DNA of 64,000 nucleotides from a virus. A program made the position numbers and the translations under genes. The notes under the pieces are model-generated. The model was not told the origin of the DNA. It saw nothing but the letters and a program-made list of their open reading frames with translations, and did no database searches. Location of the stretch: the IMG/VR virus record IMGVR_UViG_3300042923_000607, positions 1 through 64,000 of that record, one strand, 5' to 3'. Positions 1,213 to 38,387 of the stretch are shown here, in pieces (position 1 is the first letter of the stretch; every line of letters starts with the position of its first letter).

Positions 1213-3561
1213 TTACTGTACCTCTTCCCATTTTTTTAATATCCACCCATTTTGATTTAATATTTTTTCAAAATCTAATAATTTTATCACTGAATACTCA
1301 TTAAGGGAAAGGGTTTCTCCTGGATTGACATAAATATAAAACCGATCTTTTTTACCATTTTTAATGCTTCTTAGTATAACGCTATATTTTCCCATAAAAA
1401 ATTCTATACTTTCAACATTGGTTATCAGGGAATCTATCGAATTATCTTCAAAGCACACATATCCCAAATTGTCCATTTGTAATTTTATTATCTCTGATAT
1501 TGATAAATCAGAAGGTTGTTGATTATTAATTATATAATCATAAAGAGCAGTTCCATTTAATTTTGTAATAGATTTTACTGATTCTTTTCCAAATAATGCG
1601 GCCGTTTCAATTCGTACACCATGCTTCACAAGTCTTTCTTTTGTAATAGAAGTTTTTTCATATAAAAGTTTATATAAATCTAATTGTTGTAATAAGTTTT
1701 TTATTGTACCAAACTTACTAAAATAGCCAACCAAAATTAAGTTTTTAAAATCTTTAGTTTTTGACAAAGAGTTATTCAAAACAGATTCAATTATTTGATG
1801 AAAAGATGTATATGAGTCATCAATTAATTCGTATACATCAAGTTTAGTATCTTCTTCTGTCACTTCAATAAAATCGCCATATCGTTTGTTTGCTAACTCT
1901 ATATACCAATTTTTATCAAGTTTATCAATTATTTTTTTATCAATAACTGCATCATTATAAATGAATGCAATATCTGGAGTGTTACCAACTTTATCGGCTT
2001 TCCCATTTCTAAACTTATATATTCCACCATCAGTGGGGTCTTTAGAAGCAAACAGTCTTAATACCCTTTCAGATAATACAGTTTCCCCATGCATTCCATA
2101 TTCATAATCTTTTCCGATTTTTATTACTTTTTGAAAAGCTATTAAATCCTCACATTCCATTATAGTTTTTTCTAGTGGTATATTTTTAACTAGTTTATTG
2201 ACAAGTGCTTTATTAACTATTGGCAAATCATAATCTAAATCATTTAGTTTTTTAACATACGCACCTTTTGATTTATAATGTCCATCTTCAGCCATAATAA
2301 CATAGTTATTAACATCTTTTTGAAACACTGTAACGTAGGTGTCATGTTCTAAATCCAATCTAGTTCTTTTACTCCACTCATCACAAACTGTTACGTATTC
2401 ATCATAATAACTTGAATTAGGAAGTTTGACTAATATTCCATCTGTATTAGACTGTATTAATTCGCATTGCGATCCAAAATGCATTTCAATTTTTTCAATT
2501 AAATCTAATAATAATAGTTGTCCAGTTACACAAACATTGTTAGCCATCAAGGGATCAAACAATTGGTTATATTTATCTTTCATTGCACCATATGTGGAAT
2601 TTAAAACAATTTTATAAGGAAGCTGCATTGGATTTTTTGCTTTTTTGAGCTCGAGTCTTTTATCTCTTATACGTCTATAACTTTGCATATCCGGCACATT
2701 TCTGGATAAATAGTCATACTCTATCATAATTGAAGGATAAAGCGATGCTACATCTGACATTATATAAAATCCATTTCCGCTATAGTTTGATATTGCTCCA
2801 TGTATTCCTCCCCATGCAAAAATATGAGGAACATTATATACTTTTGTTTTTAGAGACATATTATAGTTTAAATTTATTTTACATTTATACCAATCAACTA
2901 TGTATTTATATTTTTTAGAAATCGCCAGTGTTTCAGGAAAAGTGATATTGAAATCATCAAATCTATCTTTTTCGTTTTTTGCGCCTAATATAATTGCTGA
3001 AAGTTGAGCTTTTGTTTTATTCATATAGTTTTTTGGTAAATTAAAAGCTTCAACCAATGAGGTTTGACTTTCTAATTCTTCTGGCTGTCTTTTGAAAACT
3101 TCTATCGTTTGTTCAACGTCATGAATACAATACTTTTTAGTAAGTTCCAACTCTGATTCAGTTAGTTTTCTTTTAATATTAAAGTCTACGCTTGTTTCTC
3201 TTATATCATTTCCCATAAATGCTTCTAACTGCTTTAATGATTTTGTTTTATCAATCATACAATCATAAATAAGAAGTTCAATGTCTTTAAATTTCTTTGA
3301 ATACTGACCACCCTTATTCCCATCAATTATAATAAAATCATTAACTTTTTTAGGATCAATTCCGCATAATATAGCCTTGAAAATAAACTGATCATAGCTC
3401 CTAGCATTATATCCAATAAATACCTGATTTTTATTATTCTCATAAAAACTAACAAGCTCATCTGTATTATTGATTATTATTTTTCGTTTATTACCATCAT
3501 TTGTATCTATAAATACAAACATCCAATCTTTATAAAATACTTCGCAGTCAAAGCACCACAT
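1213..3561 (-). CDS. Family B DNA polymerase with 3'-5' exonuclease and a C-terminal extension
   Basis: Exo I DCEV, Exo II YNARSYD, Exo III YCIHDV; polymerase motifs DVASLYPS, KIVLNSTYG, SNTDG. Confidence 0.92.
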   Translation of the reverse strand: MWCFDCEVFYKDWMFVFIDTNDGNKRKIIINNTDELVSFYENNKNQVFIGYNARSYDQFIFKAILCGIDPKKVNDFIIIDGNKGGQYSKKFKDIELLIYDCMIDKTKSLKQLEAFMGNDIRETSVDFNIKRKLTESELELTKKYCIHDVEQTIEVFKRQPEELESQTSLVEAFNLPKNYMNKTKAQLSAIILGAKNEKDRFDDFNITFPETLAISKKYKYIVDWYKCKINLNYNMSLKTKVYNVPHIFAWGGIHGAISNYSGNGFYIMSDVASLYPSIMIEYDYLSRNVPDMQSYRRIRDKRLELKKAKNPMQLPYKIVLNSTYGAMKDKYNQLFDPLMANNVCVTGQLLLLDLIEKIEMHFGSQCELIQSNTDGILVKLPNSSYYDEYVTVCDEWSKRTRLDLEHDTYVTVFQKDVNNYVIMAEDGHYKSKGAYVKKLNDLDYDLPIVNKALVNKLVKNIPLEKTIMECEDLIAFQKVIKIGKDYEYGMHGETVLSERVLRLFASKDPTDGGIYKFRNGKADKVGNTPDIAFIYNDAVIDKKIIDKLDKNWYIELANKRYGDFIEVTEEDTKLDVYELIDDSYTSFHQIIESVLNNSLSKTKDFKNLILVGYFSKFGTIKNLLQQLDLYKLLYEKTSITKERLVKHGVRIETAALFGKESVKSITKLNGTALYDYIINNQQPSDLSISEIIKLQMDNLGYVCFEDNSIDSLITNVESIEFFMGKYSVILRSIKNGKKDRFYIYVNPGETLSLNEYSVIKLLDFEKILNQNGWILKKWEEVQ

Positions 3562-3575
3562 GTCATCATCTCCTT

Positions 3576-5468
3576 TTATTCAAATGGTAGTTCTTTAGTA
3601 TTTGGATAGTGTATTTTATTTTCGTATGTTGCTTTATCCCAAGCGTATTTTCTGTCAAACTCTGTTTCATTGGTATAGAATCGTCTTGACTTATTATCAT
3701 AAAACATTCCAACTTCTAAGCCTTCTCTTCCTCGTAATCTGTCTTTTAAAACATCTAAGATAACATCAAATTTTACTGGGTTTTTTATATCTTCTTTTTC
3801 CTTTTTCTGAACTCTATACAAGCTGAAAAGTCTATGTGCTAAGTCAACCGAAGTGCCCATTCCTTGAACATCAAATTTAGTTAATCTTCTCATTGTATCA
3901 ATCTTTTTCGGATGAATTACCAAAAACACTACAACGTGGTATTTTCTTGCAAAAGATATCAACCAATTTATTAAATCTACTTGTTTTTGCCATTTTGAAT
4001 CATCCGTACAAGATAGATTTAGACTTGACATATTATCTAAAATGAATAATTTACACCCAAACTTTCTAACACAGTCTTCCATTGATTTTTTTATATCTTC
4101 TATATCATTTGTACATTCATCTTTATACAGATAGAAATGTTTTTTATAAAATTCGCTTATACTTTTTTTTGCTTCTTTTTTTACGGTATAATATGTACTA
4201 CCAAAAGCATTACTATGTTCATCAACATTTCTCGATCCAGCAAATATTGAGTCTATCCAATTTTTAGTAAGATAATTTGGCATTTCTCCAGAATACATCC
4301 ACACATCTTTACCTTGATCTATGGAATTGCAAGTTAGTTGTCCTAAAAAACTAGATTTTCCTCCCCCATTAACACCTGTTAAAATATTAAATGTTCCATA
4401 AAAAAGTCTCATTAATTCCCTATCAAGTGTTTCAATTCCAGTTGTAATTCCATCAATTGTTGAAATATCAATATCATCAACATCTGAAAAATCAATTACA
4501 GAATCTACGGGTGTATCTTTTGCATTTAAAATCATATTCATAACAAAACTCTTACCAAAAGCTTGTAGAGTATCGTTCATATCTTTAATTGGGATTCTTG
4601 TTCCCTTATCTGTAATTTTTTCTTTTGGATATTCTATATATTTTGTTCTCCAAGATCCCAATCTATAAATACATTCTTTACGCATTTTAGTACCAGCGTC
4701 ATCATTGTCAGAGGCTATGATTATATTATCAAATTGTTCTAACCACTCCCAATTTTCCTCTATCCAATGAAAATCATGTGCACCAAATGGAATTGATACG
4801 GTATTAAAATAGCCCGATTCTATAGCGGAGGCAGCATCTCCTTCCCCTTCTATAATCAACAACGGATAGTTTGGATTCACCCTATTCATATTGAATAATA
4901 AATGTATTTTATCGGAATCTCCCTGCTTCCAGTTTTTTGCTTCTCCTTTATCTAAACTTCTAGAAGGTCTGTATTTAATCATGGTTAACACATCATTAGC
5001 ATCATAATATCGAAATACGGTGTTTGAATAAGTGTCACTTCCAAAATTAAGATAATCCAATGTGTCCTTTGATAATCCCCTTTTCGCCCAGTACTCATAT
5101 ACTTTAGCCATGTCTCCGCTTTCATCTTTCGGATATCTAAATTGCGTTTTAGTCTTTACATCCTTCTCTCCAAAAGAATAACTTATTTCTGCGTACTCAA
5201 ACAGTTTTTGAATAGCTGATAAAAATGTGTTGCCTTTCTGAAGTAAAACATCTATTAAATCAATATTTTGACCACATCCAAAACAATGAAAGCAGTAATG
5301 TTTTTTATCATAAATAAAACTCGGTGTTTTTTCTCCATGAAAAGGACATAAAGCTTTTAAATTCTTTTCGTCAAATCCTTCTAGGTTTAATAATTCTGCT
5401 ATCAGTGTTGCATTTTTATCACCCAACTTTTCTTTAGCCTGTTCAATCAGTTCTTTGTCTATTATCAA
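3576..5468 (-). CDS. Bifunctional primase-helicase (CHC2 Zn finger, TOPRIM, SF4 helicase)
   Basis: CPFHxEKTPSF...CFGC, IIEGEGD, DNDDAG, Walker A GVNGGGKS, ILDN, VIHPKK; TTG start at 5468 chosen from the upstream GAAGGAG RBS. Confidence 0.92.
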   Translation of the reverse strand: MIIDKELIEQAKEKLGDKNATLIAELLNLEGFDEKNLKALCPFHGEKTPSFIYDKKHYCFHCFGCGQNIDLIDVLLQKGNTFLSAIQKLFEYAEISYSFGEKDVKTKTQFRYPKDESGDMAKVYEYWAKRGLSKDTLDYLNFGSDTYSNTVFRYYDANDVLTMIKYRPSRSLDKGEAKNWKQGDSDKIHLLFNMNRVNPNYPLLIIEGEGDAASAIESGYFNTVSIPFGAHDFHWIEENWEWLEQFDNIIIASDNDDAGTKMRKECIYRLGSWRTKYIEYPKEKITDKGTRIPIKDMNDTLQAFGKSFVMNMILNAKDTPVDSVIDFSDVDDIDISTIDGITTGIETLDRELMRLFYGTFNILTGVNGGGKSSFLGQLTCNSIDQGKDVWMYSGEMPNYLTKNWIDSIFAGSRNVDEHSNAFGSTYYTVKKEAKKSISEFYKKHFYLYKDECTNDIEDIKKSMEDCVRKFGCKLFILDNMSSLNLSCTDDSKWQKQVDLINWLISFARKYHVVVFLVIHPKKIDTMRRLTKFDVQGMGTSVDLAHRLFSLYRVQKKEKEDIKNPVKFDVILDVLKDRLRGREGLEVGMFYDNKSRRFYTNETEFDRKYAWDKATYENKIHYPNTKELPFE

Positions 5469-11967: not shown

Positions 11968-12011
11968 ATTTTCTCCTCTCATTTTCAAAACAAAACACCT
12001 GTTTTATATAA

Positions 12012-12200
12012 TTAATAATTCCATTTATAAAGATTATAGTCGTCTCCAACCAAGGTGTAATTATAATTGTTCTTTTTAAGTCCGGATTTATTTATGCCCT
12101 GGATCATGGCCATCGCAAGATTTGAATCTGTTACATTCTCGGCAATTAAAATATCATTTTCAGTACTGAGATTTTCCTTTGAAACTGCTACAATTTTCAT
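12012..12200 (-). CDS. hypothetical protein
   Basis: ORF with AAAGGTGG RBS between sites 11990 and 12219. Confidence 0.7.
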   Translation of the reverse strand: MKIVAVSKENLSTENDILIAENVTDSNLAMAMIQGINKSGLKKNNYNYTLVGDDYNLYKWNY

Positions 12201-12241
12201 TTAATACCACCTTTCTGTATAAAATATCACTTTGATATTGA

Positions 12242-12679
12242 TTATCTTTCTAATCCTTTAAAAACTAACCCTCTATATCGTGGTAATTCAAGAATTTTAT
12301 TATAAATCCTTAAAACATCATTTGCAAAATTACTTCCACCCATCTGTGGGGTAACTGAATATTCGTCTATTGCTGATTTAAGAATATTTTCGTTATAGTA
12401 TTTATCATTGGCCTTACACCACTTTAAAATTGCATATCCGATACCATACAAATTTGCATCATGAAAAAACCATTTCGCTATTTCTTTATTTTTTAATTTT
12501 TCTATATAGTCAATTGCTTTGTCATAATCCGTAAAATTATTTCCATTTATTCTAACAATATTATCATTATTAGTTACAGATTTTAGTTTTTCCATGGCGC
12601 CATCCAATGCTGTTGCCTCCTCTACTGCTGATTTGATAATATCTGTTAAAATTTTGATTTCGTCAATCTTGTTATTCAT
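12242..12679 (-). CDS. hypothetical protein
   Basis: ORF with AAGGAG RBS between sites 12219 and 12711. Confidence 0.7.
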   Translation of the reverse strand: MNNKIDEIKILTDIIKSAVEEATALDGAMEKLKSVTNNDNIVRINGNNFTDYDKAIDYIEKLKNKEIAKWFFHDANLYGIGYAILKWCKANDKYYNENILKSAIDEYSVTPQMGGSNFANDVLRIYNKILELPRYRGLVFKGLER

Positions 12680-12724
12680 TAAACATTCTCCTTCCATTCA
12701 TTAACTTTAAATAAAACCTCTATT

Positions 12725-12916
12725 CTATGCAGACATTATCCTTCCTTCTGCTATATTAAAATACTTATCCTCTAATTCATCAATTTTTTCCGATTTTCTA
12801 ACAGCTTTTAAAATTGTTCTACAAGCAACATCAAAATTTACTCCTTCGTGTGCCATTTCGGCACGCATTTCTAACCCTAAAATTTTAATTGCTTCCTCTA
12901 AATTATAACGTTCCAT
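12725..12916 (-). CDS. hypothetical protein
   Basis: ORF with AGGAGG RBS between sites 12711 and 12986. Confidence 0.7.
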   Translation of the reverse strand: MERYNLEEAIKILGLEMRAEMAHEGVNFDVACRTILKAVRKSEKIDELEDKYFNIAEGRIMSA

Positions 12917-12999
12917 ATCATTTCCCTCCTGCTATGAATTTTAGGTAAGGACATAAATGTCATAACCAAAAATCTAATTTTCAAAATAAAATGCCTCTT

Positions 13000-13551
13000 T
13001 TATCCTCTTATGAATTCTCTAAATTTTGAATACGATCCAAATTTCTCTTTCCACCCTGCAACAATTTCGGTAGGATTAAGGCTAAATTCCTTACAAACAT
13101 ATGTAATGTACTCATTTTCGTACAATTTCTTTCTTCTTTTGTTAAGGGCTTTTACTTCCGCGAATACTACATCTCTACTAATCTTATATTCCTTTTCTAG
13201 ATATTTACTTAAATCATACTGAGAATACTCGATAAATTGACATATAGGGCAAACACATTCTGGAACCTCATAATACCCCCCGTCTGAGGCTAATTCCATC
13301 AATTCTTCATTTTCTAGTTCATTAAGTTCTGCTTCTGTTTTTTTGTTATATTCTGATTCTAATATAATCTGTATAAGCTCTTTTGAATCAACTTCCAAAG
13401 CTTCGTCAATGCAAAAAATATGACCATTTACACATTCCATCATTTCACATTCACGTAAACTGATATCCCATCCGCTCTCTTCTCTACCACAAATTTCACA
13501 TACATAACTTGAACTACTACTATTAGTAACAAAATCTCTCCTAAATTTCAT
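13000..13551 (-). CDS. TNSSSSS-motif protein 4 (Cys-rich, putative radical SAM substrate)
   Basis: MKFRRDFVTNSSSSSYV then CEIC, CxNGHxFC, CVCPIC; GGAGG RBS. Confidence 0.85.
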   Translation of the reverse strand: MKFRRDFVTNSSSSSYVCEICGREESGWDISLRECEMMECVNGHIFCIDEALEVDSKELIQIILESEYNKKTEAELNELENEELMELASDGGYYEVPECVCPICQFIEYSQYDLSKYLEKEYKISRDVVFAEVKALNKRRKKLYENEYITYVCKEFSLNPTEIVAGWKEKFGSYSKFREFIRG

Positions 13552-13552
13552 A

Positions 13553-13984
13553 TTATTCATCCTCCAATATAATAAAGTTTTCTTTATCTTCTGCTAATGA
13601 ATTAATCATGTTAGAACAGTAAGTATCATTATAGTCAACACTTTTACATAAAATTTTATAACCATTATTTAATGCTTCAATTGCCTTGTTATATTTATTA
13701 GTTAAATAATCATCATCTTCAAGAATCTTATCAATTGTATTTGCTTTACTCCACCCATAATTTTCTACTATATACTGGTTGTATTCTTCTATGCTTGAAA
13801 ATTTTTCACCTTCATCCGTATCATTATCTCCTGCTGTAAACAAAACTTTTTCAATTAGTTTTCCATAGTTTTTTAAGAATGGATATTTATTTAACGTTTC
13901 ATCATCAAAAGTTGGCAAATCCCGATAAGCAATTATATAGCTGCTACTACTCGAATTGGTAACAAAGTCTGTTCTAATCTTCAT
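13553..13984 (-). CDS. TNSSSSS-motif protein 3
   Basis: MKIRTDFVTNSSSSSYII N-terminus; acidic body. Confidence 0.85.
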   Translation of the reverse strand: MKIRTDFVTNSSSSSYIIAYRDLPTFDDETLNKYPFLKNYGKLIEKVLFTAGDNDTDEGEKFSSIEEYNQYIVENYGWSKANTIDKILEDDDYLTNKYNKAIEALNNGYKILCKSVDYNDTYCSNMINSLAEDKENFIILEDE

Positions 13985-13986
13985 AA

Positions 13987-14388
13987 TCAACCATTCCTTC
14001 CTGACCCTTGCTCAATGTTTAAATCAAATCCTTTTAGCCCGTTTAATTTATTTGATACGTATTCATAATGTTCATCTACATCTTCTTCTATAACTTCACC
14101 ATCTTCATCTGCCTCAACATCCGTGTAATTACTATAAATAAAATATAGTTTATCTTCGACAATTTCTTGTTTATCTTGAAATGGATCTACCCAACACCAA
14201 TCATCACAGGTATTCTCATAACGTAAATTCTCATAATCGTCTAATAACTCTTTACCAGTCATTACATAAGATGACAATTTATTTTCTTCTGCGCTTTTTA
14301 GTGCTATTTCATTATCTGTAGCTATCCCAAATACTGCAATAAAACTACTGCTAGAACTGTTAGTTACAAAATCTGTACGAATTTTCAT
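13987..14388 (-). CDS. TNSSSSS-motif protein 2
   Basis: MKIRTDFVTNSSSSSFIA N-terminus; very acidic body ending GSGRNG. Confidence 0.85.
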   Translation of the reverse strand: MKIRTDFVTNSSSSSFIAVFGIATDNEIALKSAEENKLSSYVMTGKELLDDYENLRYENTCDDWCWVDPFQDKQEIVEDKLYFIYSNYTDVEADEDGEVIEEDVDEHYEYVSNKLNGLKGFDLNIEQGSGRNG

Positions 14389-14396
14389 TTATTATC

Positions 14397-14762
14397 CTAC
14401 CTTTCTATCTCTCCATAATCAAAAGAAACATCGTTATTGGTTATTTGTGTTACATATGTATCGTTAAATTTCTTTACAAGTTCATCCTTAATTTGTGTTA
14501 ATGTCTTTTCTGACAATTCCCTTTCACTTAAATCATATCCAATATAATTTAAATAACTCCCCTCGCCTACCGATGCAGTTAGATTTCCTTTTAGATTAAA
14601 ATCTTCCCAATTATTATTTTCTACGGCATCACTAAATTCATCCGAATTGTCATCTGGAAGACCATTTTCTTTGAGAATATCTTTGCTTAATTTATTATTA
14701 ATCCTTAAACAAATAAAACTAGAACTACTTGAATTAGTTACATAATCAATTCTTACTTTCAT
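14397..14762 (-). CDS. TNSSSSS-motif protein 1
   Basis: MKVRIDYVTNSSSSSFIC N-terminus; start overlaps the end of the radical SAM gene, AAAGGAG RBS. Confidence 0.85.
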   Translation of the reverse strand: MKVRIDYVTNSSSSSFICLRINNKLSKDILKENGLPDDNSDEFSDAVENNNWEDFNLKGNLTASVGEGSYLNYIGYDLSERELSEKTLTQIKDELVKKFNDTYVTQITNNDVSFDYGEIER

Positions 14763-15837
14763 ATAAATCTTTCTCCTTTCTATCACACAATACTATTTGT
14801 CTTCTAATTGGGCAACCACCCATACATTCATTTCTTTTACTACAATTCCCACATGAATTTCTAAAATGATCTCTAAAATCCTCAAACTGTTCACTATCCC
14901 ATGCGTTCTGAATTGAATCGTTTGATATATCATAAAACCATTTTAATTCCTGATTGTCAAATGAACACGGAATAGCTTTCATATCCGATGTAATATACAT
15001 TGACCATCTTCCGCCTTCACACGTATCAAAACTGTCTTGATTTATATTTTTTGTAAGATTAACTAATGCCGGAATCGTACAGCTATCAAATCCGATCTTG
15101 AAATTGAAATCTCCAGTATCTACAATTTCAAAGAATTCTTTCACTTTTGGACTATCCATTTTTAATACATTACTTTCTTGCCCTAATCCCACTGGTTTAT
15201 GTAATAAAAATATTATTGCATTAATTCCTTTTGGAAAATCATTTGTATTTAATCTTTCAATTGCTTCATCAATGGAATTATTGCCAAGTACATAATGAAT
15301 ATTAGTTTTAATACCTGCATTTAATAACATTTGAATTGCTTTATATGTATGTTCTTGACGATACCAACTAATCGCTACTGCTCCACAATACTTTTTACAG
15401 ATATTAATTATATTTTCTGTGAATCCTAAACCGGAAGAAGTAAAATTTGGAACAATTCTATTTTGCCTACAATATTTTAATATTTCCTCAAAATCCTCAT
15501 GTTGATCTACATCACCTCTGCCGCCTAAAGCTAACTGAAATGTTTTACCTTTACATTCATCAACAATTCTTTTGAAATTATCTAATGTCATATTCGGTAC
15601 TTTTGTTTTTAATCCGTTTTGATAACATTGGACTCCTGACTTTAAACACAATCCACTTGCTCCGTGTACACAATGTCCCATAACTCCAATATCAATTAAT
15701 TCTGGATATGAAGTCATAAATGGGTCTTTTCCTGTGTCTTTGCCATTCTCTATTACTCCGCTTCTCATATAAAACCCCGTATCTGGATTAAACAATGAGA
15801 TAAATTTATTCTTTTTGTCTACCTTTTTAATATTAAT
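14746..15837 (-). CDS. Radical SAM/SPASM-domain enzyme
   Basis: PELIDIGVMGHC-x7-C-x6-CYQ, ALGGRGD, NFTSSG, AISW; SPASM CEGGR...PCSF...CxxCx5Cx3CP; frame open back to an ATT at 15837 after AGGAG. Confidence 0.9.
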   Translation of the reverse strand: MNIKKVDKKNKFISLFNPDTGFYMRSGVIENGKDTGKDPFMTSYPELIDIGVMGHCVHGASGLCLKSGVQCYQNGLKTKVPNMTLDNFKRIVDECKGKTFQLALGGRGDVDQHEDFEEILKYCRQNRIVPNFTSSGLGFTENIINICKKYCGAVAISWYRQEHTYKAIQMLLNAGIKTNIHYVLGNNSIDEAIERLNTNDFPKGINAIIFLLHKPVGLGQESNVLKMDSPKVKEFFEIVDTGDFNFKIGFDSCTIPALVNLTKNINQDSFDTCEGGRWSMYITSDMKAIPCSFDNQELKWFYDISNDSIQNAWDSEQFEDFRDHFRNSCGNCSKRNECMGGCPIRRQIVLCDRKEKDLYESKN

Positions 15838-15882
15838 TTAAATCACTCCTTTCTAAATCAAAACCAAACAAACATTCTATTT

Positions 15883-16047
15883 TTATTTTTCTTTGTAAAA
15901 ATCAATCCATGAATATAATGTGGTTCCAACAGTTGATATCAATCCATACATCACAGCTGTATTACCATATTGCTTATATAATAGAGTAAACCCAGCCGCC
16001 ATCATTATGAAGCTTAAAAAATAAATAATTACTTTTACCTGTTTCAT
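15883..16047 (-). CDS. small membrane protein (54 aa, not in ORF track)
   Basis: MKQVKVIIYFLSFIMMAAGFTLLY...; overlaps upstream stop (ATGATGA), AAGGAG RBS. Confidence 0.6.
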   Translation of the reverse strand: MKQVKVIIYFLSFIMMAAGFTLLYKQYGNTAVMYGLISTVGTTLYSWIDFYKEK

Positions 16048-16271
16048 CATTTCTCCTTTATTGTTTTATTTTTTAAATGTGTTCTAAACATTTCTTCTAA
16101 TGTCTTTTTATTTAGTCCAAGGAGTTTCTTCTTCGCTTTAATGCTATTATTTAAATAATCAAGCACCGATATCTCAAAACTATCAATTGTTTTCGAATTC
16201 TCTTTAAGCATTTTGAAAATCCTAATTTCTTCGCAAAGTGTGTAAATGTAAGAGTTCATTTTATCATCCAT
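16047..16271 (-). CDS. hypothetical protein
   Basis: ORF with GAGGTG RBS. Confidence 0.65.
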   Translation of the reverse strand: MDDKMNSYIYTLCEEIRIFKMLKENSKTIDSFEISVLDYLNNSIKAKKKLLGLNKKTLEEMFRTHLKNKTIKEK

Positions 16272-16291
16272 AATTTCACCTCGCTATTGTT

Positions 16292-16561
16292 TTATATGTT
16301 ATATTGTATGCTGTAACTTGCTATATGTACACTGTCTTTCTTTTTCTTTTTCAAAAACTTTTCTGTTTTATATGTAATGTTATCTTCGTATTTCTCTGGA
16401 TAATCAATCAATCCAAAGCTTTTGCTGCCACATGCCGGGTCTGGACACTGTAATTCCACTCCTAATCCCGTATCTACTCTCCTTATTTGACTCTGATGGA
16501 AAACTAGATTACATTTTCTACACTGGCAGATCTCCTTTCCATTAATAACTGTTTCAATCAC
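16292..16561 (-). CDS. zinc-ribbon hypothetical protein
   Basis: CRKC...CPDPAC; follows promoter at 16631-16659. Confidence 0.7.
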   Translation of the reverse strand: MIETVINGKEICQCRKCNLVFHQSQIRRVDTGLGVELQCPDPACGSKSFGLIDYPEKYEDNITYKTEKFLKKKKKDSVHIASYSIQYNI

Positions 16562-16630
16562 TAGAGTTTCGCCCCTTCTTATTTTAGTTTGTTGTATTTG
16601 TTATTTAGTATAATACTTGCTGACAAGATA

Positions 16631-16659
16631 AGTATATCACCTGTAGTATCATCTGTCAA
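16631..16659 (-). promoter_or_regulatory. sigmaA-type promoter
   Basis: TTGACA-17nt-TATACT with extended TG; 12-bp repeat at 16673. Confidence 0.75.
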
Positions 16660-16683
16660 CAACTATTTTAATTGTTTTATATG

Positions 16684-17034
16684 TTATTTACTAAGTAATT
16701 GTCCACAGTTAGGACAACACTTTGATTTTCTTTTCACGGTAGTTAAACAAGTCGGACACCAATATCCTTGAATCACATTTGAAGAACACACTGGCTTCTT
16801 CTCTCTTAGTCCCTCACAATATTCTTTACTTACAACTTCTTCTGATGGTCGTATTCTTAGCTGTCCAGACTCCCAGTCAATTCCGAAGCGTATTCCTTCT
16901 ATATTTACGGAAGCTCTCGATCCTATGGAAGGATCACTTAAGTCTAATACCACATTAATTTTTTCTGGATTTTTATTATTTGGAGTATTTTCATAAGCAT
17001 TTTTTATTGTTTCATGCATCTCTTTTAAATTCAT
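16684..17034 (-). CDS. hypothetical protein with C-terminal zinc ribbon
   Basis: GIDWESG motif; YWCPTC...CCPNCGQ. Confidence 0.7.
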   Translation of the reverse strand: MNLKEMHETIKNAYENTPNNKNPEKINVVLDLSDPSIGSRASVNIEGIRFGIDWESGQLRIRPSEEVVSKEYCEGLREKKPVCSSNVIQGYWCPTCLTTVKRKSKCCPNCGQLLSK

Positions 17035-17076
17035 GATTTCACCACCTTTCACTATCAAATATGTCTTTGCTGTTGA

Positions 17077-33941: not shown

Positions 33942-34915
33942 GCTTTACACCTCCAAAGTGTGAATAAAATGTTAGTTTTGTTTTGTTTTATCTATCTTTG
34001 TTCGCTTGACTATATGCACTGTATTCAGTATTATCCATGTTTGCATATTCAAAATAATTTGTAAATTGTAAATCGGTCATACTCATAAATTCATCATAAC
34101 AAAAATTATAATACTTTTCATCTTCGCTCATTGCTAAACCCTCCAATATTTGAATTTGTTTACTACGTTTTTTTGTGCCGAATCGTAGTTGCTCCGCCTA
34201 TAAGTTTAAACCTCATATAGTGGTTGGTCAATTGTAAAGCATAAAGACCAATGCTGTTATTATAGGAACTTTGTTTGTCACTCGTCAAAGTCAAGTTTTT
34301 AAAGACTTCAAACCTATAACAATGTAGATAAAATAGCTTGAATTACATTACTGCGTTTAATTGATCAATTTCTCTTTGTCTTGCTTGCCAATGCTCAATA
34401 TTTCTCAGTGTGCTATAGGCAATAATAAATTCCATCAGGCTAGTAAAAATATACTCAACCTCGTTATATGTTGCCTTGATTATGTTTCCATGTCTTTTAA
34501 TATTCTTCATATGTGGGTATCCTTTCCTGTTTCATTTATTAGTTATTCATGCAGACAATACTAATATTTTTCAATTATCAACTACCATTATTAAAGCGTT
34601 TACTATGTCCCGTTTGGCGGTGGTTCGTCATACTCTTGTAACTGTTTAATGTTTGTTATTCTTGTATTATCTGCATTCTATAATTAATAAATGTTTTATT
34701 TAGTGTTTACTGGCTTACACAAACGATTTTCACGTTTTATAGTTACCTGTCAAGATGCTATCTTGTAACCCTTCACTATTCCAGAATGGATTTAATTGTC
34801 ATTGTTCAAGTGCCGATAAATCTTTGAGGACTTATTGTTTACAGGTTGCTATTGCTTAAAACCCATTGTAGGAATTGCACCCACTAACTCGTTGCTAGAG
34901 CCACTATTAAGGTTG

Positions 34916-35101
34916 TTATAAGTACTTCTTTATGTCTATTGTGTCCGATATGTCGGAAAGTCTGGAGCAAAGTATATTCTCTATTTCTTCCTCTATATCC
35001 ACGTTATATGCTAATCTCTGAAACACCTTTGTAGCTTCCTTTACTATTTCGTCCTGTACTTCCTGTGGTAACTGTGACACGTATAAATGACTATTACTCA
35101 T
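34916..35101 (-). CDS. hypothetical protein, first gene of leftward transcript
   Basis: AGGAGGT RBS and promoter at 35151-35179. Confidence 0.75.
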   Translation of the reverse strand: MSNSHLYVSQLPQEVQDEIVKEATKVFQRLAYNVDIEEEIENILCSRLSDISDTIDIKKYL

Positions 35102-35150
35102 TTTGACTACCTCCTATTAAGTTGTTGTTGTATCTCTTATCTATGTATTA

Positions 35151-35179
35151 AGTATAACATACTATGTTGTATATGTCAA
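35151..35179 (-). promoter_or_regulatory. sigmaA promoter overlapped by the 12-bp repeat
   Basis: TTGACA-17nt-TATACT with extended TG; ACATATACAACA (35165-35176) overlaps the -35. Confidence 0.8.
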
Positions 35180-35206
35180 CAACTTTTTAATATATTTTTA
35201 CAACTT

Positions 35207-35422
35207 TTAATATTCTTTTTTCGTATCCCTGTCGACAAGCTTAATCTCAATATCACAGTTTAATGCCTCAACTATGTCTTTCAGTGTCTTGGGAATGAAC
35301 TCATCCTTGCTTAGTAATCTGGAGAAGTTACCTTTTTCCATTCCTATTTGAGTATAGATGTCTTTCTGCTTCAAGTCCTTATCAATGAGTATTGTCTTAA
35401 TCTTCTTTGATATTGAGTCCAT
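35207..35422 (-). CDS. XRE/Cro-like helix-turn-helix regulator
   Basis: IKTILIDKDLKQKDI...GMEKGNFSRLL...LKDIVEALNCDI; own promoter TTGACA-16nt-TATACT at 35494-35521. Confidence 0.85.
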   Translation of the reverse strand: MDSISKKIKTILIDKDLKQKDIYTQIGMEKGNFSRLLSKDEFIPKTLKDIVEALNCDIEIKLVDRDTKKEY

Positions 35423-36544
35423 GCTTTCACCTCTTTATTTTGGTTAAAGTATATTGGTTTGTCGTGTGACTGTCAAGTGTCTATCTACATATAAGTATAC
35501 TACTTTTGCCGGAAATGTCAAGACATTTGTTGTATATATTATTTATTAAGGTATTGATTTAAGCTATGATTATGCTAGAAAGCCGGATTAAACCTATATC
35601 AATTATTTATTAATGTATCTTATTTATATATTAATTGTGGTTATAATTTGATATTCCATAGTCCCAGACTGTTGATATAAGAAATCGTTATACATATGTT
35701 GATGTAATATAAGTTATAGTTATTACGCTAATCAGAATGGATTATACGATTACAGATGAATAACCAATTTCAATAATGATATCATTTCGATATCACTTTA
35801 ATATTATTTCTAATTATGACAAGTAAACTTGGCAAAGTACGAACTATATTGATATCTATCTAATTAATTTTTAAATAATGTCTATGGTTTCAATAACAAG
35901 TAAACTTGACATAAAATATCTTAATCCAGTAAAAGAGAAGTTGATAAAATGATATAAAGTCAACTTTACTCTTCATACATACTCTGGAAGCCTTGATTTT
36001 ACTGCGTTGTATGGGGGTACATTTACAAATTTTGATCAGATTTATTTTACCGGTATGCTGCTATCTGTTCTACTCACACGTCAACTTTGATTTTCAACTC
36101 CGAATAATATTGTATAATATTCTCACACAACTAACAATTACACCTCATGAATACTTCGGGAGATGTTTCGAGCAAATACAGTATATAAAAGGCTTAACAA
36201 ATTTTCAGACAATTAGTTATTGAATAACATATACAACATACAGATTCAAGTAAAGCCAGTAAACATCAATATCCCATCGATTTTTGAGCCTGTAAATAAA
36301 AAATAATAAGATATTTACTTTTTACAGGAAAACTCAGCAAAATCAATGGTTTAAGCTACTATTCTTCCGAAGATACATAATAATGGCCAATATATAAGAA
36401 AAATATTAATAAAATGTTATATATTATAAGATAGATAATCCGGAGAATCCTAGCAATTTCAATGGTTTTGATTGATTATGGATCTATGCTGCCGAAGTAT
36501 CATTGATTACAGTAAATAATTTCACTAAATAACATATAAAACAG

Positions 36545-36573
36545 TTGACACAGATAAAATACCGTGATATAAT
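36545..36573 (+). promoter_or_regulatory. consensus sigmaA promoter driving the right arm
   Basis: TTGACA-17nt-TATAAT with extended TG; 12-bp repeat at 36532-36543 abuts the -35. Confidence 0.88.
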
Positions 36574-36860
36574 TTTCTTTGTAGGGGAAAGCTATACTCT
36601 TTTTCTACTACATAACAAATGCAACATCATGGTTTTATATTCATGTTACCTATCCTAAAATGTGTACATAATATATATTATATATATGTACCAAAAATAG
36701 GATTGTAAACAATTTAATTATCTTAAAGGAGGAAAATAATATGGCAAATTTTCGGATTTTCGATTAATCAAAGAACCAAAAATTCGGCATGGGTTATTCT
36801 ATAAATTTACGGTAGCCTCACGAAATTCAGAATAAAAAAATATAACATAAAGGAGGATTT

Positions 36861-38387
36861 ATTATTAGCGAAATATTTATTTCTGACGTAATAGACGTTA
36901 ATAATTTTAAAGACGATGAGTTTAACTTAATTGCATCTGGTTGTGGCACAGGTAAGTCTACTTTTATTTTTAAGCATTTACTACTAAAATATAAAACAAT
37001 ACAACCTCACGAAATTTTATTTATAACTTCAAGGTCTATGATCGTAGATCAGCAGTCTCAGGAAGAGGGAGTTGTTAAATATAATCCGTTCAATTATAAG
37101 ATAATACAGCTTTGGAGCGGAATTGATGATGACTATAATCAAATTCAAGCTAAAGGCATAACTATAATGACCTATGATAAGATTATTAATATTCTTTTAA
37201 ACGAAAACAGTGAGCAAGGAGAAACATTAAGCAAAATTAAAATGATAGTTTTTGATGAATGCCATACTTTGTTCAGTGATTTATTTATAAGAAACATTGA
37301 AGCTTTAAAGGTTTGGATTAGAGATAATCTTTATCAGAAAGAAAAAATATTTTTAGGATTAACTGCCACTCCAAATATTCTTTTATATTACAAGGAATGG
37401 GGAGTAAAAATAAACCAGCTTAATAAAGAACCAATAATTAGATATAAAGCTAATCAACTAATATGTACTAGCTTCGAAACAATTCCATATCTTATAACCA
37501 CAAATAAACTAAAAGGCAAAACAATAATAATGTGTAGCAGTATAAAGGAATGCATTAAGTTACAAGAAGAAATACCTAACGCTGCTATTTTGGTAAGTAG
37601 GAGTAACGAATATTATAAAAAAGATAAGTACATGAATAAAATCAGAGAAGAGATTATTATAAATAGTACGTTGCCTGATATGTTTATGTATCCTACAAAA
37701 AGAGATAAAAATGGATTTCCTGTTGAATATGAAAAAAGACCTTTAGAGGTTTTAATATCTACTTCTACCTTAAGAGAGGGGATCAACTTGGTAGAGAGTA
37801 GCTGCATAAGAAATGTAGTATGTTGTTTTCAAGACGAATTACATATTTCACAATTTATGGGAAGGTGCAGGTACGATATAGATAACTTAGTCGTCGCAGA
37901 ATCTTATGTTAGGGTTGATAATTTTAACAAAGATAGCTACATGTCTAGGTGTCACATAATGTATAAGGAGTTTATAGAAAATAAGTCTAATGTTAAGTGG
38001 TTTGACAGTATTTCACACCTTGTTACTCATGAGTGCTACCAAACAAAGAGATTTATTTTATGTAAAGACGAAAGAAAATTTATAGAATACATAAACGGAA
38101 AATGGTTGGTTCCTATCGGAACTAAAAAAGAAGGATTAAATGATTATAAAATATGGAGAGATTCAGATAAAAATGAAATAATAGACATGTCAATCCGGTG
38201 TAAACTTTACGAGTTATGTAATAGTAAAATAACCTTTAATCGAGTCATAAGAACAATGCAAGACTCTCTTGGTTATGAGATAGAAAGTGGAAATCAAAGA
38301 TTTGACAATGAAAAGAAAACATATAAGTTAATCATATCTTATGAAGAAGAAAAAATAGAAAATAAAAATATAAAGGAGAATATTTAA
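36861..38387 (+). CDS. SF2 DExH helicase (possible origin-binding protein)
   Basis: Frame extends 59 codons upstream of the ORF-track ATG to ATT after AAGGAGG and contains Walker A SGCGTGKS; DECH, LTAT, TSTLREGIN, QFMGRCR. Confidence 0.88.
   Translation: MISEIFISDVIDVNNFKDDEFNLIASGCGTGKSTFIFKHLLLKYKTIQPHEILFITSRSMIVDQQSQEEGVVKYNPFNYKIIQLWSGIDDDYNQIQAKGITIMTYDKIINILLNENSEQGETLSKIKMIVFDECHTLFSDLFIRNIEALKVWIRDNLYQKEKIFLGLTATPNILLYYKEWGVKINQLNKEPIIRYKANQLICTSFETIPYLITTNKLKGKTIIMCSSIKECIKLQEEIPNAAILVSRSNEYYKKDKYMNKIREEIIINSTLPDMFMYPTKRDKNGFPVEYEKRPLEVLISTSTLREGINLVESSCIRNVVCCFQDELHISQFMGRCRYDIDNLVVAESYVRVDNFNKDSYMSRCHIMYKEFIENKSNVKWFDSISHLVTHECYQTKRFILCKDERKFIEYINGKWLVPIGTKKEGLNDYKIWRDSDKNEIIDMSIRCKLYELCNSKITFNRVIRTMQDSLGYEIESGNQRFDNEKKTYKLIISYEEEKIENKNIKENI

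What the first reader, a model, noticed from the sequence alone, without database searches (positions are those of the whole stretch)
12986..15880. Radical SAM/SPASM enzyme with four different proteins sharing an N-terminal VTNSSSSS tag: candidate protein-modification system
Seen: a tightly coupled five-gene operon. The four genes after the enzyme begin MKVRIDYVTNSSSSSFI, MKIRTDFVTNSSSSSFI, MKIRTDFVTNSSSSSYI and MKFRRDFVTNSSSSSYV, then diverge completely (121-183 aa, acidic, one Cys-rich). The Ser codons are mixed AGT/TCT/TCA/TCG/AGC, so the motif is kept at protein level. The operon is bounded by 18-bp sites (12986, 15863) with none inside, i.e. one cassette. Established: SPASM radical SAM enzymes modify peptides/proteins (anSME Ser/Cys to formylglycine, RiPP crosslinkers, epimerases). 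No transporter, protease or RRE gene is visible and the partners look like folded proteins. Inference: the 17-aa tag is the recognition/modification site and the modified proteins form a multi-subunit effector (anti-defence, host takeover or new protein-derived cofactor). I know of no characterised function for this motif.
Basis: partly seen in the sequence, partly recalled or inferred. Interest (0 to 1): 0.9.

Follow-up and report, generated by a model that had tools for sequence, protein, structure and literature searches.

The report
Phage radical-SAM enzyme with tagged proteins
An uncultured large phage encodes an iron-sulfur "radical SAM" enzyme followed by four unrelated small acidic proteins that all begin with the same 16-residue serine-rich tag, and this enzyme-plus-tag pair, which no paper found here explains, also occurs in many other phages and in bacterial immune operons.

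Summary
The core observation holds. On the minus strand, a radical SAM/SPASM gene (14746-15837) is followed by four tightly packed genes. Their products (121, 133, 143 and 183 aa, pI 4.1-4.7) share only M-K-x-R-x-D-[FY]-V-T-N-S-S-S-S-S-[FY]. The "18-bp bounding sites" are not real (9 of 18 bases match).

Enzyme and tag travel together:
- 71 of 76 related phage loci have tags beside the enzyme.
- 70 of 78 tag-bearing phage records hold the enzyme.
- 75 of 80 bacterial loci have a tag within 8 kb of the enzyme.

Tags always sit at the extreme N-terminus, on at least 21 body families with no detectable sequence relationship. A tag profile finds 22,411 protein clusters. The enzyme model resembles the peptide- and protein-modifying enzymes SuiB, anSME, ChlB and PqqE (Z 21-23) and has no RRE domain.

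- Cultured T4-like Klebsiella, Enterobacter and Escherichia phages carry the pair about 20 kb apart.
- Alphaproteobacterial plasmids place it beside Avs2-like STAND NTPases. That layout matches the published KpAvs2-Avap1-Avap2 operon, whose accessory genes have no known role.

Most likely the enzyme docks on the tag and modifies it by radical chemistry. The chemistry is unproven. This scan has flagged the same system on many other genomes.

The parts
14746..15837 (-). Radical SAM/SPASM enzyme gene. The mechanical ORF starts at TTG 15795 (349 aa). The true start is probably ATT at 15837 (363 aa) or 15831.
   Evidence: SPASM PF13186 scores 29.1 bits against a cut-off of 21.5. The gene matches phrog_7293 at E 7.5e-26. 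The 14 codons upstream of the TTG read INIKKVDKKNKFIS, and homologues start MIKKVDKKNKFIS. The AF2 model has pLDDT 86.3. Its nearest solved structures are SuiB at Z 23.4 and anSMEcpe at Z 21.8.
15622..15672 (-). Codons for the non-canonical radical-SAM cluster motif C-x7-C-x6-C-Y (CVHGASGLCLKSGVQCY, residues 42-58 of the 349-aa form). Coordinates were computed by hand from the residue numbers.
   Evidence: C42 and C57 are invariant in 28 family members. The motif aligns with the canonical C-x3-C-x2-C of the plasmid homologues and with the C-x7-C-x2-C of the T4-like homologue.
14397..14762 (-). Tagged gene 1 (121 aa, pI 4.37). Belongs to body cluster 7.
13987..14388 (-). Tagged gene 2 (133 aa, pI 4.06). 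Belongs to body cluster 5. The model is a ferredoxin-like alpha/beta body that ends in GSGRNG.
   Evidence: The AF2 model has pLDDT 88.5. Residues 1-10 are below pLDDT 50, and the strand 12-23 is modelled inside the folded body. No specific fold match was found.
13553..13984 (-). Tagged gene 3 (143 aa, pI 4.35). Belongs to body cluster 3.
13000..13551 (-). Tagged gene 4 (183 aa, pI 4.70, 9 Cys with CxxC pairs). Belongs to body cluster 1. An alternative in-frame ATG lies at 13560.
14715..14762 (-). Tag-coding segment of gene 1 (codons 1-16). The equivalent segments of the other genes are 14341-14388, 13937-13984 and 13504-13551.

Best explanation
This is a tag-directed radical-SAM system.

The enzyme is a true radical SAM/SPASM protein. 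It has three cluster-binding cysteines in an expanded C-x7-C-x6-C loop and a complete set of auxiliary-cluster cysteines. It has no RRE domain. It does have a family-specific N-terminal element, F-N-x-x-T-G-x-[FY]-x-R.

The proposed mechanism is that the enzyme recognises the extreme N-terminus of several unrelated client proteins through the invariant tag M-K-x-R-x-[DG]-[FY]-V-[TS]-N-S-S-S-S-S-[FY]. It then abstracts a hydrogen atom inside that tag and leaves a covalent change.

Two candidate reactions are offered:
(a) An aromatic-to-C-beta cyclophane on [FY]7-V8-[TS]9, or between residue 7 and N10, as triceptide synthases make.
(b) Oxidation or epimerisation of a serine in the S11-S15 run, as anSME or EpeE do.

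The clients (four here, 1 to 8 in related phages) would act separately, probably in the phage-host conflict, because bacteria use the same enzyme-tag pair beside Avs2-like STAND immune sensors.

Shown: the enzyme class, the strict N-terminal position of the tag, the lack of detectable sequence relationship between body clusters, and linkage in both directions.
Inferred: direct binding (my odds about 0.7) and a covalent change within the tag (about 0.45).
Unknown: the chemistry and the biological role of the clients.
For: 1. Linkage from the enzyme side. 71 of 76 related viral loci have at least one tag on the same strand downstream. The 5 without are cut 213-3181 nt after the enzyme. 75 of 80 bacterial-genome loci have an N-terminal tag within 8 kb.

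2. Linkage from the tag side. A DNA pattern for one tag variant hit 87 stretches. By my reading of the locus list these lie on 78 viral contigs. 38 of these contigs were already in the enzyme set. Of the other 40, 32 hold the enzyme, including 14 of 14 records that are at least 90% complete. The 8 without are 10-84% complete.

3. Position. In 276 of 278 motif hits the motif lies next to the ORF start; a start codon 6 residues before F7 was the one picked in 209 (195 ATG, 10 TTG, 4 GTG). The other 2 hits are spurious. K2, R4, [DG]6, S15 and [FY]16 were not imposed by the search pattern yet are nearly invariant in 176 unique proteins. Positions 7 and 16 are only ever F or Y, although L, I and V were allowed at position 7.

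4. Bodies. 177 unique tagged proteins form 21 clusters. All 45 profile-profile comparisons among the 10 largest clusters give a probability of 16.6% or less.

5. The tag variant follows the genome rather than the body. 85 of 86 loci with at least 2 tags are uniform at position 6 (57 all D, 28 all G). All 28 G loci belong to the 68-69%-identity enzyme clade.

6. Enzyme. The SPASM motif CX2CX5CX3C and eight auxiliary cysteines are conserved. The structural neighbours are all peptide- or protein-modifying enzymes: SuiB Z 23.4, anSMEcpe 21.8, SkfB 21.0, ChlB 20.9, PqqE 20.9 and CteB 20.8.

7. The pair persists across deep divergence.
- In T4-like phage phi5 the enzyme is 28.5% identical to ours, and two genes tagged MKIRSGFVSNSSSSSF lie 19-24 kb from it.
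- The enzyme and the two tagged genes are found in 171, 175 and 174 phage records. Genus counts match except Klebsiella (108 against 115 and 114) and three enzyme-only records.
- On plasmids, an Avs2-like STAND NTPase is followed by a protein tagged MKxKxDFVSNSSSTSF and the enzyme, in 4 of 4 loci inspected out of 7 hits.

8. Related phages carry an intein with a LAGLIDADG domain inside the enzyme gene.
Against: - No chemistry is shown by anything here.
- In the AF2 model of the 133-aa client, residues 12-23 (SSSSFIAVFGIA) are the first strand of the folded body. Only residues 1-10 are flexible. The serine run may therefore be buried structure rather than a substrate site, unless the enzyme acts before folding.
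- In known leader-guided systems the conserved piece is usually the handle and not the site that is altered.
- The enzyme meets no curated family cut-off other than SPASM, so its reaction cannot be transferred from a relative.
- The T4-like enzyme lacks two of the SPASM cysteines.
- The linkage counts rest on related phages and are not independent events. The D/G switch at position 6 is essentially one event.
- One bacterial locus with full flanks (L217) has the enzyme and no tag.
Confidence: 0.5

Rival explanations
1. Docking only. The tag is a non-covalent handle that brings each client to the enzyme. The radical chemistry happens elsewhere on the client body, or the clients regulate or are regulated by the enzyme.
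For: In RiPP systems the conserved leader is the handle. The second half of the tag is modelled as a core strand of the body. The enzyme has a conserved N-terminal element of low model confidence that could pair with a strand.
Against: The bodies share nothing that could serve as a common modification site. The tag is pinned to within one residue of the N-terminus. The asparagine and the first three serines are invariant in all copies seen, and the strictly aromatic positions 7 and 16 are more constrained than a simple handle needs.
Confidence: 0.22
2. The enzyme works on a small molecule or nucleic acid, in the manner of viperin. The tagged proteins are adaptors or inhibitors that tune it.
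For: Viperins appear among the structural neighbours (Z 19.0-19.5). The plasmid homologue gives weak pVip hits in PADLOC (E 4e-12 over about 100 residues).
Against: The full SPASM domain with two auxiliary clusters is typical of peptide or protein substrates, and the top structural matches are all such enzymes. Bechon et al. report no viperin-type nucleotides and no NTP pocket for Avap1 (PMC11564622, passages read).
Confidence: 0.1
3. RiPP-like release. The modified N-terminal peptide is cut off and is the active product, and the bodies are carriers.
For: The closest solved enzymes are RiPP maturases.
Against: No protease or exporter was detected in the six neighbouring ORFs scanned. The body families are themselves conserved across phages, for example 53-77% identity over the full length for the 133-aa family. 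The serine run and the residues after it form a core strand in the model.
Confidence: 0.07
4. The motif has nothing to do with the enzyme. It is a structural N-terminal strand or a targeting signal (packaging, injection or degradation), and it co-occurs with the enzyme only through shared ancestry.
For: Most of the loci counted are related phages. Residues 12-23 are structural in the model.
Against: The pairing survives in three very distant settings with 28-38% enzyme identity: gut phages, T4-like phages and alphaproteobacterial plasmids. In most bacterial loci the module is just one tagged gene plus the enzyme. The bodies are not related.
Confidence: 0.06

Closest known systems
KpAvs2 operon of Klebsiella pneumoniae: Avs2 sensor with accessory proteins Avap1 (radical SAM) and Avap2 (small protein). 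Bechon et al. 2024, Nat Commun 15:9860, PMC11564622; passages read.
   Same: The gene content is the same: an Avs2-type STAND NTPase, a small protein and a radical SAM enzyme. I saw this layout with a tagged small protein in 4 of 4 alphaproteobacterial plasmid loci. The NTPase of the one scanned (L279) matches PADLOC Avs2 models at E 8e-27. The paper shows that Avap2 binds Avs2, and that Avap1 is needed against some phages but has no known reaction.
   Different: The window is a phage with no STAND gene beside the pair, and it has four clients instead of one. I could not obtain the KpAvs2 sequences, so I did not test whether Avap2 carries the tag or whether Avap1 belongs to this enzyme family. 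PF19902 (DUF6375, the paper's HHpred hit for Avap2) matched none of the tagged proteins I scanned. The paper's supplements were not open to me.
Anaerobic sulfatase-maturating enzyme (anSMEcpe/AtsB; PDB 4K36-4K39)
   Same: It is an RRE-less radical SAM/SPASM enzyme that acts on whole proteins and can oxidise a serine. The structural match is Z 21.8, rmsd 3.0 over 285 residues.
   Different: The TIGR03942 score is 14.2 bits against a cut-off of 349. The (C/S)-x-(P/A)-x-R target motif is absent from the tag. The clients are not sulfatases. The site is pinned to the N-terminus.
SuiB/StrB, the streptide Lys-Trp cyclase (PDB 5V1Q/S/T)
   Same: It is the best structural match: Z 23.4 over 306 residues, Foldseek E 3e-11. 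It is a SPASM enzyme that crosslinks a side chain to an aromatic ring.
   Different: SuiB has an RRE domain and acts on a short leader-core peptide. Sequence identity is 15-16%.
Triceptide synthases (three-residue cyclophane-forming rSAM/SPASM enzymes such as ChlB, HtkB and XncB). PMC11499958, passages read; ChlB PDB 9GM3/9GMC.
   Same: They crosslink an aromatic ring to C-beta of X3 in aromatic-X2-X3 motifs. The tag has strictly aromatic residues at positions 7 and 16, giving [FY]-V-[TS] and [FY]-x-x. ChlB matches at Z 20.9.
   Different: No curated cyclophane-synthase model appeared among the NCBIfam hits. Triceptide substrates are short precursor peptides with leaders. This link is a hypothesis from motif shape only.
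FxSxx-motif peptides with a radical SAM-SPASM gene in vWA-MoxR (VMAP) ternary conflict systems. Kaur, Burroughs, Iyer and Aravind 2020, eLife 9:e52696, PMC7159879; passages read.
   Same: A radical SAM/SPASM gene sits beside a short conserved F-x-S-type motif inside NTPase-based bacterial conflict systems, and the authors predict peptide modification.
   Different: There the motif is on small peptides processed by a peptidase and linked to vWA-MoxR systems. Here it is an N-terminal tag on whole proteins, linked to STAND NTPases or standing alone in phages. Homology was not tested.

Membership tests
Radical SAM superfamily (PF04055) | Three cysteines that bind the [4Fe-4S] cluster (canonical CX3CX2C) in a partial TIM barrel | tested here: met
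   PF04055 did not hit the window protein. Its CX7CX6C motif aligns with the canonical CX3CX2C of the plasmid homologues, one of which (L279) hits PF04055 at E 5e-16. C42 and C57 are invariant in 28 sequences. The fold matches radical SAM enzymes at Z above 20.
SPASM domain (PF13186 / TIGR04085) | C-terminal seven-cysteine motif including CX2CX5CX3C, for two auxiliary clusters | tested here: met
   PF13186 scores 29.1 bits against a cut-off of 21.5. TIGR04085 scores 27.0 against 27. C239, C259, C277, C315, C318, C324 and C328 are invariant and C337 nearly so.
Anaerobic sulfatase-maturating enzymes (TIGR03942) | Family HMM cut-off, and a (C/S)-x-(P/A)-x-R motif in a sulfatase substrate | tested here: not met
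   The score is 14.2 bits against a cut-off of 349.45. The tag contains no such motif.
RiPP maturase systems with RRE (SuiB, PqqE/PqqD, CteB) | An RRE (PqqD-like) domain or partner, a short leader-core precursor, and a protease or exporter | tested here: not met
   No PqqD/RRE hit in the enzyme. The clients are 121-183 aa and one has a confident folded model. The six neighbouring ORFs scanned have no Pfam hit.
Triceptide (three-residue cyclophane) synthases | An aromatic-X2-X3 motif in the substrate, and membership of the XyeB/GrrM/FxsB-type enzyme clusters | tested here: inconclusive
   The motif shape is present at positions 7-9 and 16-18. No such family appears among the 14 NCBIfam hits. 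ChlB is a structural neighbour tied with many others.
KpAvs2-type operon accessory pair (Avap1/Avap2) | A radical SAM gene and a small partner gene adjacent to an Avs2 STAND NTPase | tested here: not met
   No STAND gene lies next to the pair in the window. The feature is met for the plasmid homologues of the enzyme.
KpAvs2-type operon accessory pair (Avap1/Avap2) | Sequence homology of the tagged protein to Avap2 (DUF6375, PF19902) and of the enzyme to Avap1 | tested here: inconclusive
   PF19902 gave no match in the window genome, none in 5 and then 401 bacterial genomes, and none on any tagged protein scanned. The KpAvs2 sequences themselves were not available.

The most novel reading that the evidence does not exclude
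One radical-SAM enzyme family writes a covalent mark on the first 18 or so residues of many unrelated whole proteins. The mark would be, for example, a strained cyclophane on [FY]7-V-[TS]9 or an oxidised serine. The mark is used on both sides of the phage-bacterium conflict. In bacteria it would arm or restrain Avs2-like STAND sensors through a single tagged partner. Phages would bring their own enzyme and arrays of 1-8 tagged effectors or decoys. That would be a new, widespread class of N-terminal protein modification (at least 22,411 protein clusters at 50% identity). It could be studied directly in cultured T4-like phages of Escherichia, Klebsiella and Enterobacter.
Probability: 0.3. Interest if true: 0.92.

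Novelty: new variant of a known kind. Interest (0 to 1): 0.8.

Why it matters
Radical SAM/SPASM enzymes are known to mature short peptides, and in one case a single enzyme class (sulfatases). A version that reads a portable N-terminal tag on dozens of unrelated whole proteins would be a new way of modifying proteins after translation.

The tag is very common: a profile of it finds 22,411 protein clusters. The pair sits in phage early regions and beside Avs2-like immune sensors, so it probably matters for phage-host conflict. It would also give a testable role to Avap1 and Avap2, whose function the published work leaves open.

The pair is present in cultured T4-like phages, including nine Escherichia phage records. 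The question can therefore be answered with ordinary genetics and mass spectrometry.

Tried and rejected
Work that gave no usable result:
- Complex prediction of the enzyme with the 133-aa client gave a score of 0.01 against a mark of 0.32. That is no verdict and is not evidence either way.
- Fold searches for the 133-aa client body found nothing specific. Foldseek PDB gave no match at E <= 0.001. VIA wide gave a best Z of 5.8 to generic ferredoxin-like alpha/beta folds. BFVD gave no match at E <= 0.001.
- Pfam, NCBIfam, PHROGs and PADLOC gave no family for any of the four clients. The only signal was weak N-terminal hits to phrog_7397.
- PF19902 (DUF6375) gave no match in the window genome, in 5 bacterial genomes or in 401 genomes of one phylum. 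Nothing rang in the control genomes either, so these searches say little.
- The last homologue search, with the plasmid tagged protein, found 301 relatives. None of the 120 listed has a precomputed Pfam family.
- blastn of the operon against cultured phages found no match.
- tblastn with the 143-aa client found only two weak, partial hits.
- The sequencing-run search listed no RNA holder, only three DNA runs. I did not lay reads.
- Literature searches for the motif strings and for word combinations found nothing relevant. Searches returned zero papers. One search returned two unrelated papers.
- The bacterial locus L219 (Dorea) has no STAND gene near the pair. Its neighbours are histidine kinases and ABC/FtsX transporters. 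STAND association is therefore not general.
- I rejected a shared-fold paralogue explanation because profile-profile probabilities are at most 16.6%.
- I rejected the 18-bp sites.
- Promoter-like matches in 12000-17000 are at chance level (32 found, 30.9 expected), and no terminator-like site flanks the block.
- Atlas look-up for the 143-aa client returned only unnamed 'hypothetical protein' clusters, mostly viral (best score 0.95); it added nothing.
- Counts not cross-checked: the 71 of 76 and the 22,411 include hits that were not all inspected, and the per-genus phage counts are not record-by-record matches.

Full report
WHAT IS THERE

The window is the first 64 kb of a 116,239-bp IMG/VR virus record estimated to be 72% complete. 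It has about 30% G+C. A minus-strand replication and early block holds a DNA polymerase, a primase-helicase and an RNA ligase. A plus-strand structural block holds the terminase and portal genes.

The five genes of the finding lie on the minus strand inside the early block. They are a SPASM enzyme ORF (14746..15795) and four genes starting at 14762, 14388, 13984 and 13551. The products of those four begin MKVRIDYVTNSSSSSF, MKIRTDFVTNSSSSSF, MKIRTDFVTNSSSSSY and MKFRRDFVTNSSSSSY. They are 121, 133, 143 and 183 aa long with pI 4.06-4.70, and the last has nine cysteines. The genes overlap by 17 nt or are separated by 8, 2 and 1 nt.

Conservation of the tag is at protein level. In codons 1-16, 79 of 96 pairwise residue comparisons are identical, 41 of them through different codons. 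In codons 17-40, only 11 of 144 are identical. Three of the five serine positions use both the TCN and AGY codon families. The motif occurs exactly four times in all six frames of the 116-kb record.

They match at 9 of 18 positions, and no repeat family joins the two intergenic regions.

THE ENZYME

Curated libraries recognise only the SPASM domain: PF13186 at 29.1 bits and TIGR04085 exactly at its cut-off. All equivalog models score far below their thresholds. PHROGs places the enzyme in phrog_7293, of unknown function.

The family is large. 4,610 proteins match at E <= 1e-5, and the best 120 are 76-92% identical, many on contigs of 100-240 kb.

The cluster motif is unusual. It is C-x7-C-x6-C-Y here, C-x-C-x3-C-x3-C-Y or C-x5-C-x3-C-Y in more distant phage members, and C-x7-C-x2-C in the T4-like homologue. 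The alphaproteobacterial plasmid homologues have the canonical C-x3-C-x2-C, and these motifs align with one another. These are therefore the radical SAM ligands in an expandable loop.

The SPASM cysteines, including CX2CX5CX3C, are invariant or nearly so. A family-specific element, F-N-x-x-T-G-x-[FY]-x-R, precedes the core in all branches.

The AF2 model is confident (pLDDT 86.3, pTM 0.85), except for the N-terminal 30 or so residues. Its neighbours are the peptide- and protein-modifying SPASM and twitch enzymes:
- SuiB: Z 23.4
- anSMEcpe: Z 21.8
- SkfB: Z 21.0
- ChlB: Z 20.9
- PqqE: Z 20.9
- CteB: Z 20.8

These values are effectively tied. There is no RRE domain.

THE TAG AND ITS CLIENTS

Among 76 related viral loci, 71 have 1-8 tags on the enzyme's strand downstream. 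The five without are truncated 213-3181 nt after the enzyme.

Of 278 motif hits (these loci plus the window), 276 lie next to the ORF start; a start codon six residues before F7 was the one picked in 209, with ATG, TTG or GTG.

Across 176 unique proteins, K2, R4, [DG]6, S15 and [FY]16 are nearly invariant although my search pattern did not require them. Positions 7 and 16 are only ever F or Y.

The 177 unique proteins fall into 21 body clusters, and the window's four belong to clusters 7, 5, 3 and 1. None of the 45 profile-profile comparisons among the ten largest clusters exceeds 16.6% probability. 97.7% of these proteins have a pI below 5.5.

The 133-aa client folds confidently (pLDDT 88.5) into a generic ferredoxin-like alpha/beta body. 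It has no specific structural relative.

One detail of this model matters for the mechanism. Residues 1-10 (MKIRTDFVTN) have pLDDT below 50, whereas residues 12-23, which hold four of the five serines and the hydrophobic residues after them, form the first strand of the folded body. The tag is therefore half flexible N-terminal peptide and half first beta-strand of whatever body follows.

LINKAGE FROM THE TAG SIDE

A degenerate DNA pattern for one tag variant hit 87 stretches. By my reading of the locus list these lie on 78 viral contigs. Thirty-eight were already in the enzyme set. Of the other 40 records, 32 contain the enzyme, including 14 of 14 that are at least 90% complete. The eight without are 10-84% complete.

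A 38-position profile of the tag finds 22,411 cluster representatives at E <= 0.001 among 1.84 billion, nearly always starting at residue 1. The few double hits I looked at read as two adjacent tagged proteins joined end to end in one predicted protein.

Tag variants follow the genome rather than the body. 85 of 86 loci with at least two tags are uniform at position 6 (57 all D, 28 all G). All 28 G loci belong to one enzyme clade. This is essentially a single evolutionary event, so it is suggestive only.

WIDER DISTRIBUTION

1. Species-representative bacterial genomes. 443 stretches encode a relative of the enzyme. The best 80 are mostly Lachnospiraceae, Oscillospiraceae and other Clostridia from guts and rumens, which points to the likely host range. 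Of these 80, 75 have an N-terminal tag within 8 kb. Most often it is a single gene of about 124 aa immediately upstream. Only one of the five exceptions (L217) has complete flanks. Large tagged proteins carry BspA-type LRR and BRCT domains.

2. Cultured phages. 171 Straboviridae-type records (Klebsiella, Enterobacter, Cronobacter, Citrobacter, Escherichia and others) encode a 28.5%-identical enzyme. No tagged gene lies beside it in phage phi5. The same genome nevertheless has two tagged genes, MKIRSGFVSNSSSSSF..., of 170 and 155 aa, 19-24 kb away. Those two genes occur in 175 and 174 records. Genus counts match the enzyme's except Klebsiella (108 against 115 and 114) and three enzyme-only records. 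This is one lineage, and the comparison is by counts rather than record by record. It shows that a lack of adjacency does not mean the enzyme is absent, and it gives the system culturable hosts.

3. Plasmids. Seven Agrobacterium, Rhizobium and Rhodobacter plasmids encode a 35-38%-identical enzyme. In the four loci I inspected, the gene order is a SMEK-domain NACHT/STAND NTPase, in three of the four a small untagged protein, a 131-132-aa tagged protein (MKxKxDFVSNSSSTSF) and then the enzyme. In the one locus scanned (L279) the NTPase matches PADLOC Avs2 models at E 8e-27.

COMPARISON WITH WHAT IS KNOWN

Bechon et al. 2024 (PMC11564622; passages read) describe the KpAvs2 operon. It consists of an Avs2 sensor-nuclease, Avap1 (a radical SAM protein) and Avap2 (a small protein with an HHpred hit to DUF6375). 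According to the paper:
- Avap2 binds Avs2.
- Avap2 could not be deleted when Avap1 and Avs2 were present.
- Avap1 is needed against phage T2 but not against SECphi18.
- No viperin-like product was found.

The architecture matches what I see on the plasmids. I could not test whether Avap2 carries the tag.

Kaur et al. 2020 (PMC7159879; passages read) note radical SAM-SPASM genes beside FxSxx-motif peptides in vWA-MoxR conflict systems and predict peptide modification.

Triceptide synthases crosslink an aromatic ring to C-beta of X3 in aromatic-X2-X3 motifs (PMC11499958). The strictly aromatic positions 7 and 16 of the tag give such motifs, and ChlB is among the structural neighbours. This is a hypothesis based on motif shape and not a membership claim.

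No paper found by my searches contains the tag strings or describes the pairing.

MECHANISM AND ODDS

The functional pairing of enzyme and tag is close to certain. Direct recognition of the tag by the enzyme is likely (about 0.7). A covalent radical modification within the tag is plausible (about 0.45). It is unproven, and the structural role of residues 12-23 in the model argues against the serine run being freely accessible after folding.

If modification occurs, it probably takes place on the nascent or unfolded N-terminus, or within the flexible residues 1-10. The tightly linked, mostly unannotated early-gene setting, the acidic clients and the bacterial STAND association point to a role in phage-host conflict. 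Whether that role is counter-defence, decoy or takeover is open.

EARLIER SCAN NOTES

This scan has already flagged the same enzyme-tag system on many other genomes. I used those notes as leads only. From them I took the Avs2 paper, the Kaur paper and the remark that a phage sister form of the tag often lacks a nearby enzyme. My T4-like result offers an explanation for that remark, because there the enzyme is elsewhere in the same genome.

LIMITS

- The complex prediction gave no verdict.
- No RNA run was listed.
- The counts come from related sequences and are not independent events.

Noticed in passing
window 15795-15837, minus strand: The enzyme gene probably starts at a non-canonical ATT (15837 or 15831). 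The 14 codons upstream of the TTG read INIKKVDKKNKFIS, which matches the MIKKVDKKNKFIS or MSIIKKVDKKNKFIS N-termini of homologues. An AGGAG lies 8 nt before 15837. There is no ATG, GTG or TTG in frame after the upstream TAA.
   Followed up: partly
L190 (record G040) 1483-3723 minus strand; also L193 (record G015): In two related phages the enzyme gene is interrupted around model position 100 by an intein with a LAGLIDADG homing-endonuclease domain. Intein_splicing scores E 8e-10 and LAGLIDADG_3 scores E 8e-6. The open frames are 746 aa in L190 and 753 aa in L193.
   Followed up: partly
L001 3899-5050 (Enterobacter phage phi5 ORF73): The T4-like homologue of the enzyme lacks two of the SPASM cysteines, those equivalent to the fourth Cys of CX2CX5CX3C and to the last Cys. 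Its auxiliary clusters may therefore be incompletely ligated.
   Followed up: no
proteins P0141-P0146 and P0156: Some predicted proteins in the public library hold two tags, one at the N-terminus and one internal. They look like two adjacent tagged genes read as one protein. This could be a true fusion, a gene-calling artefact or a recoded stop codon.
   Followed up: no
L269 9039-12224; L275 5460-7886; L272 9042-10415: In Clostridia genomes the same tag heads very large proteins (458-1062 aa) with BspA-type leucine-rich repeats, and in one case a BRCT domain.
   Followed up: partly
L197 1093-1560 (phi5 ORF23) against window 13987-14388: The T4-like tagged protein ORF23 ends in GGGYDG and the window's 133-aa client ends in GSGRNG. 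The profile comparison aligned only the first 36 residues (96.8% probability), so a shared body is not shown.
   Followed up: partly
window 16292-16561 and 16684-17058, minus strand: Two small ORFs just upstream of the operon carry paired CxxC motifs that look like zinc ribbons. Neither has a Pfam family.
   Followed up: no
window about 34000-37000: Coding strand and GC skew switch here, from the minus-strand replication and early module to the plus-strand structural module (terminase 46471-48366, portal 48384-50021).
   Followed up: no
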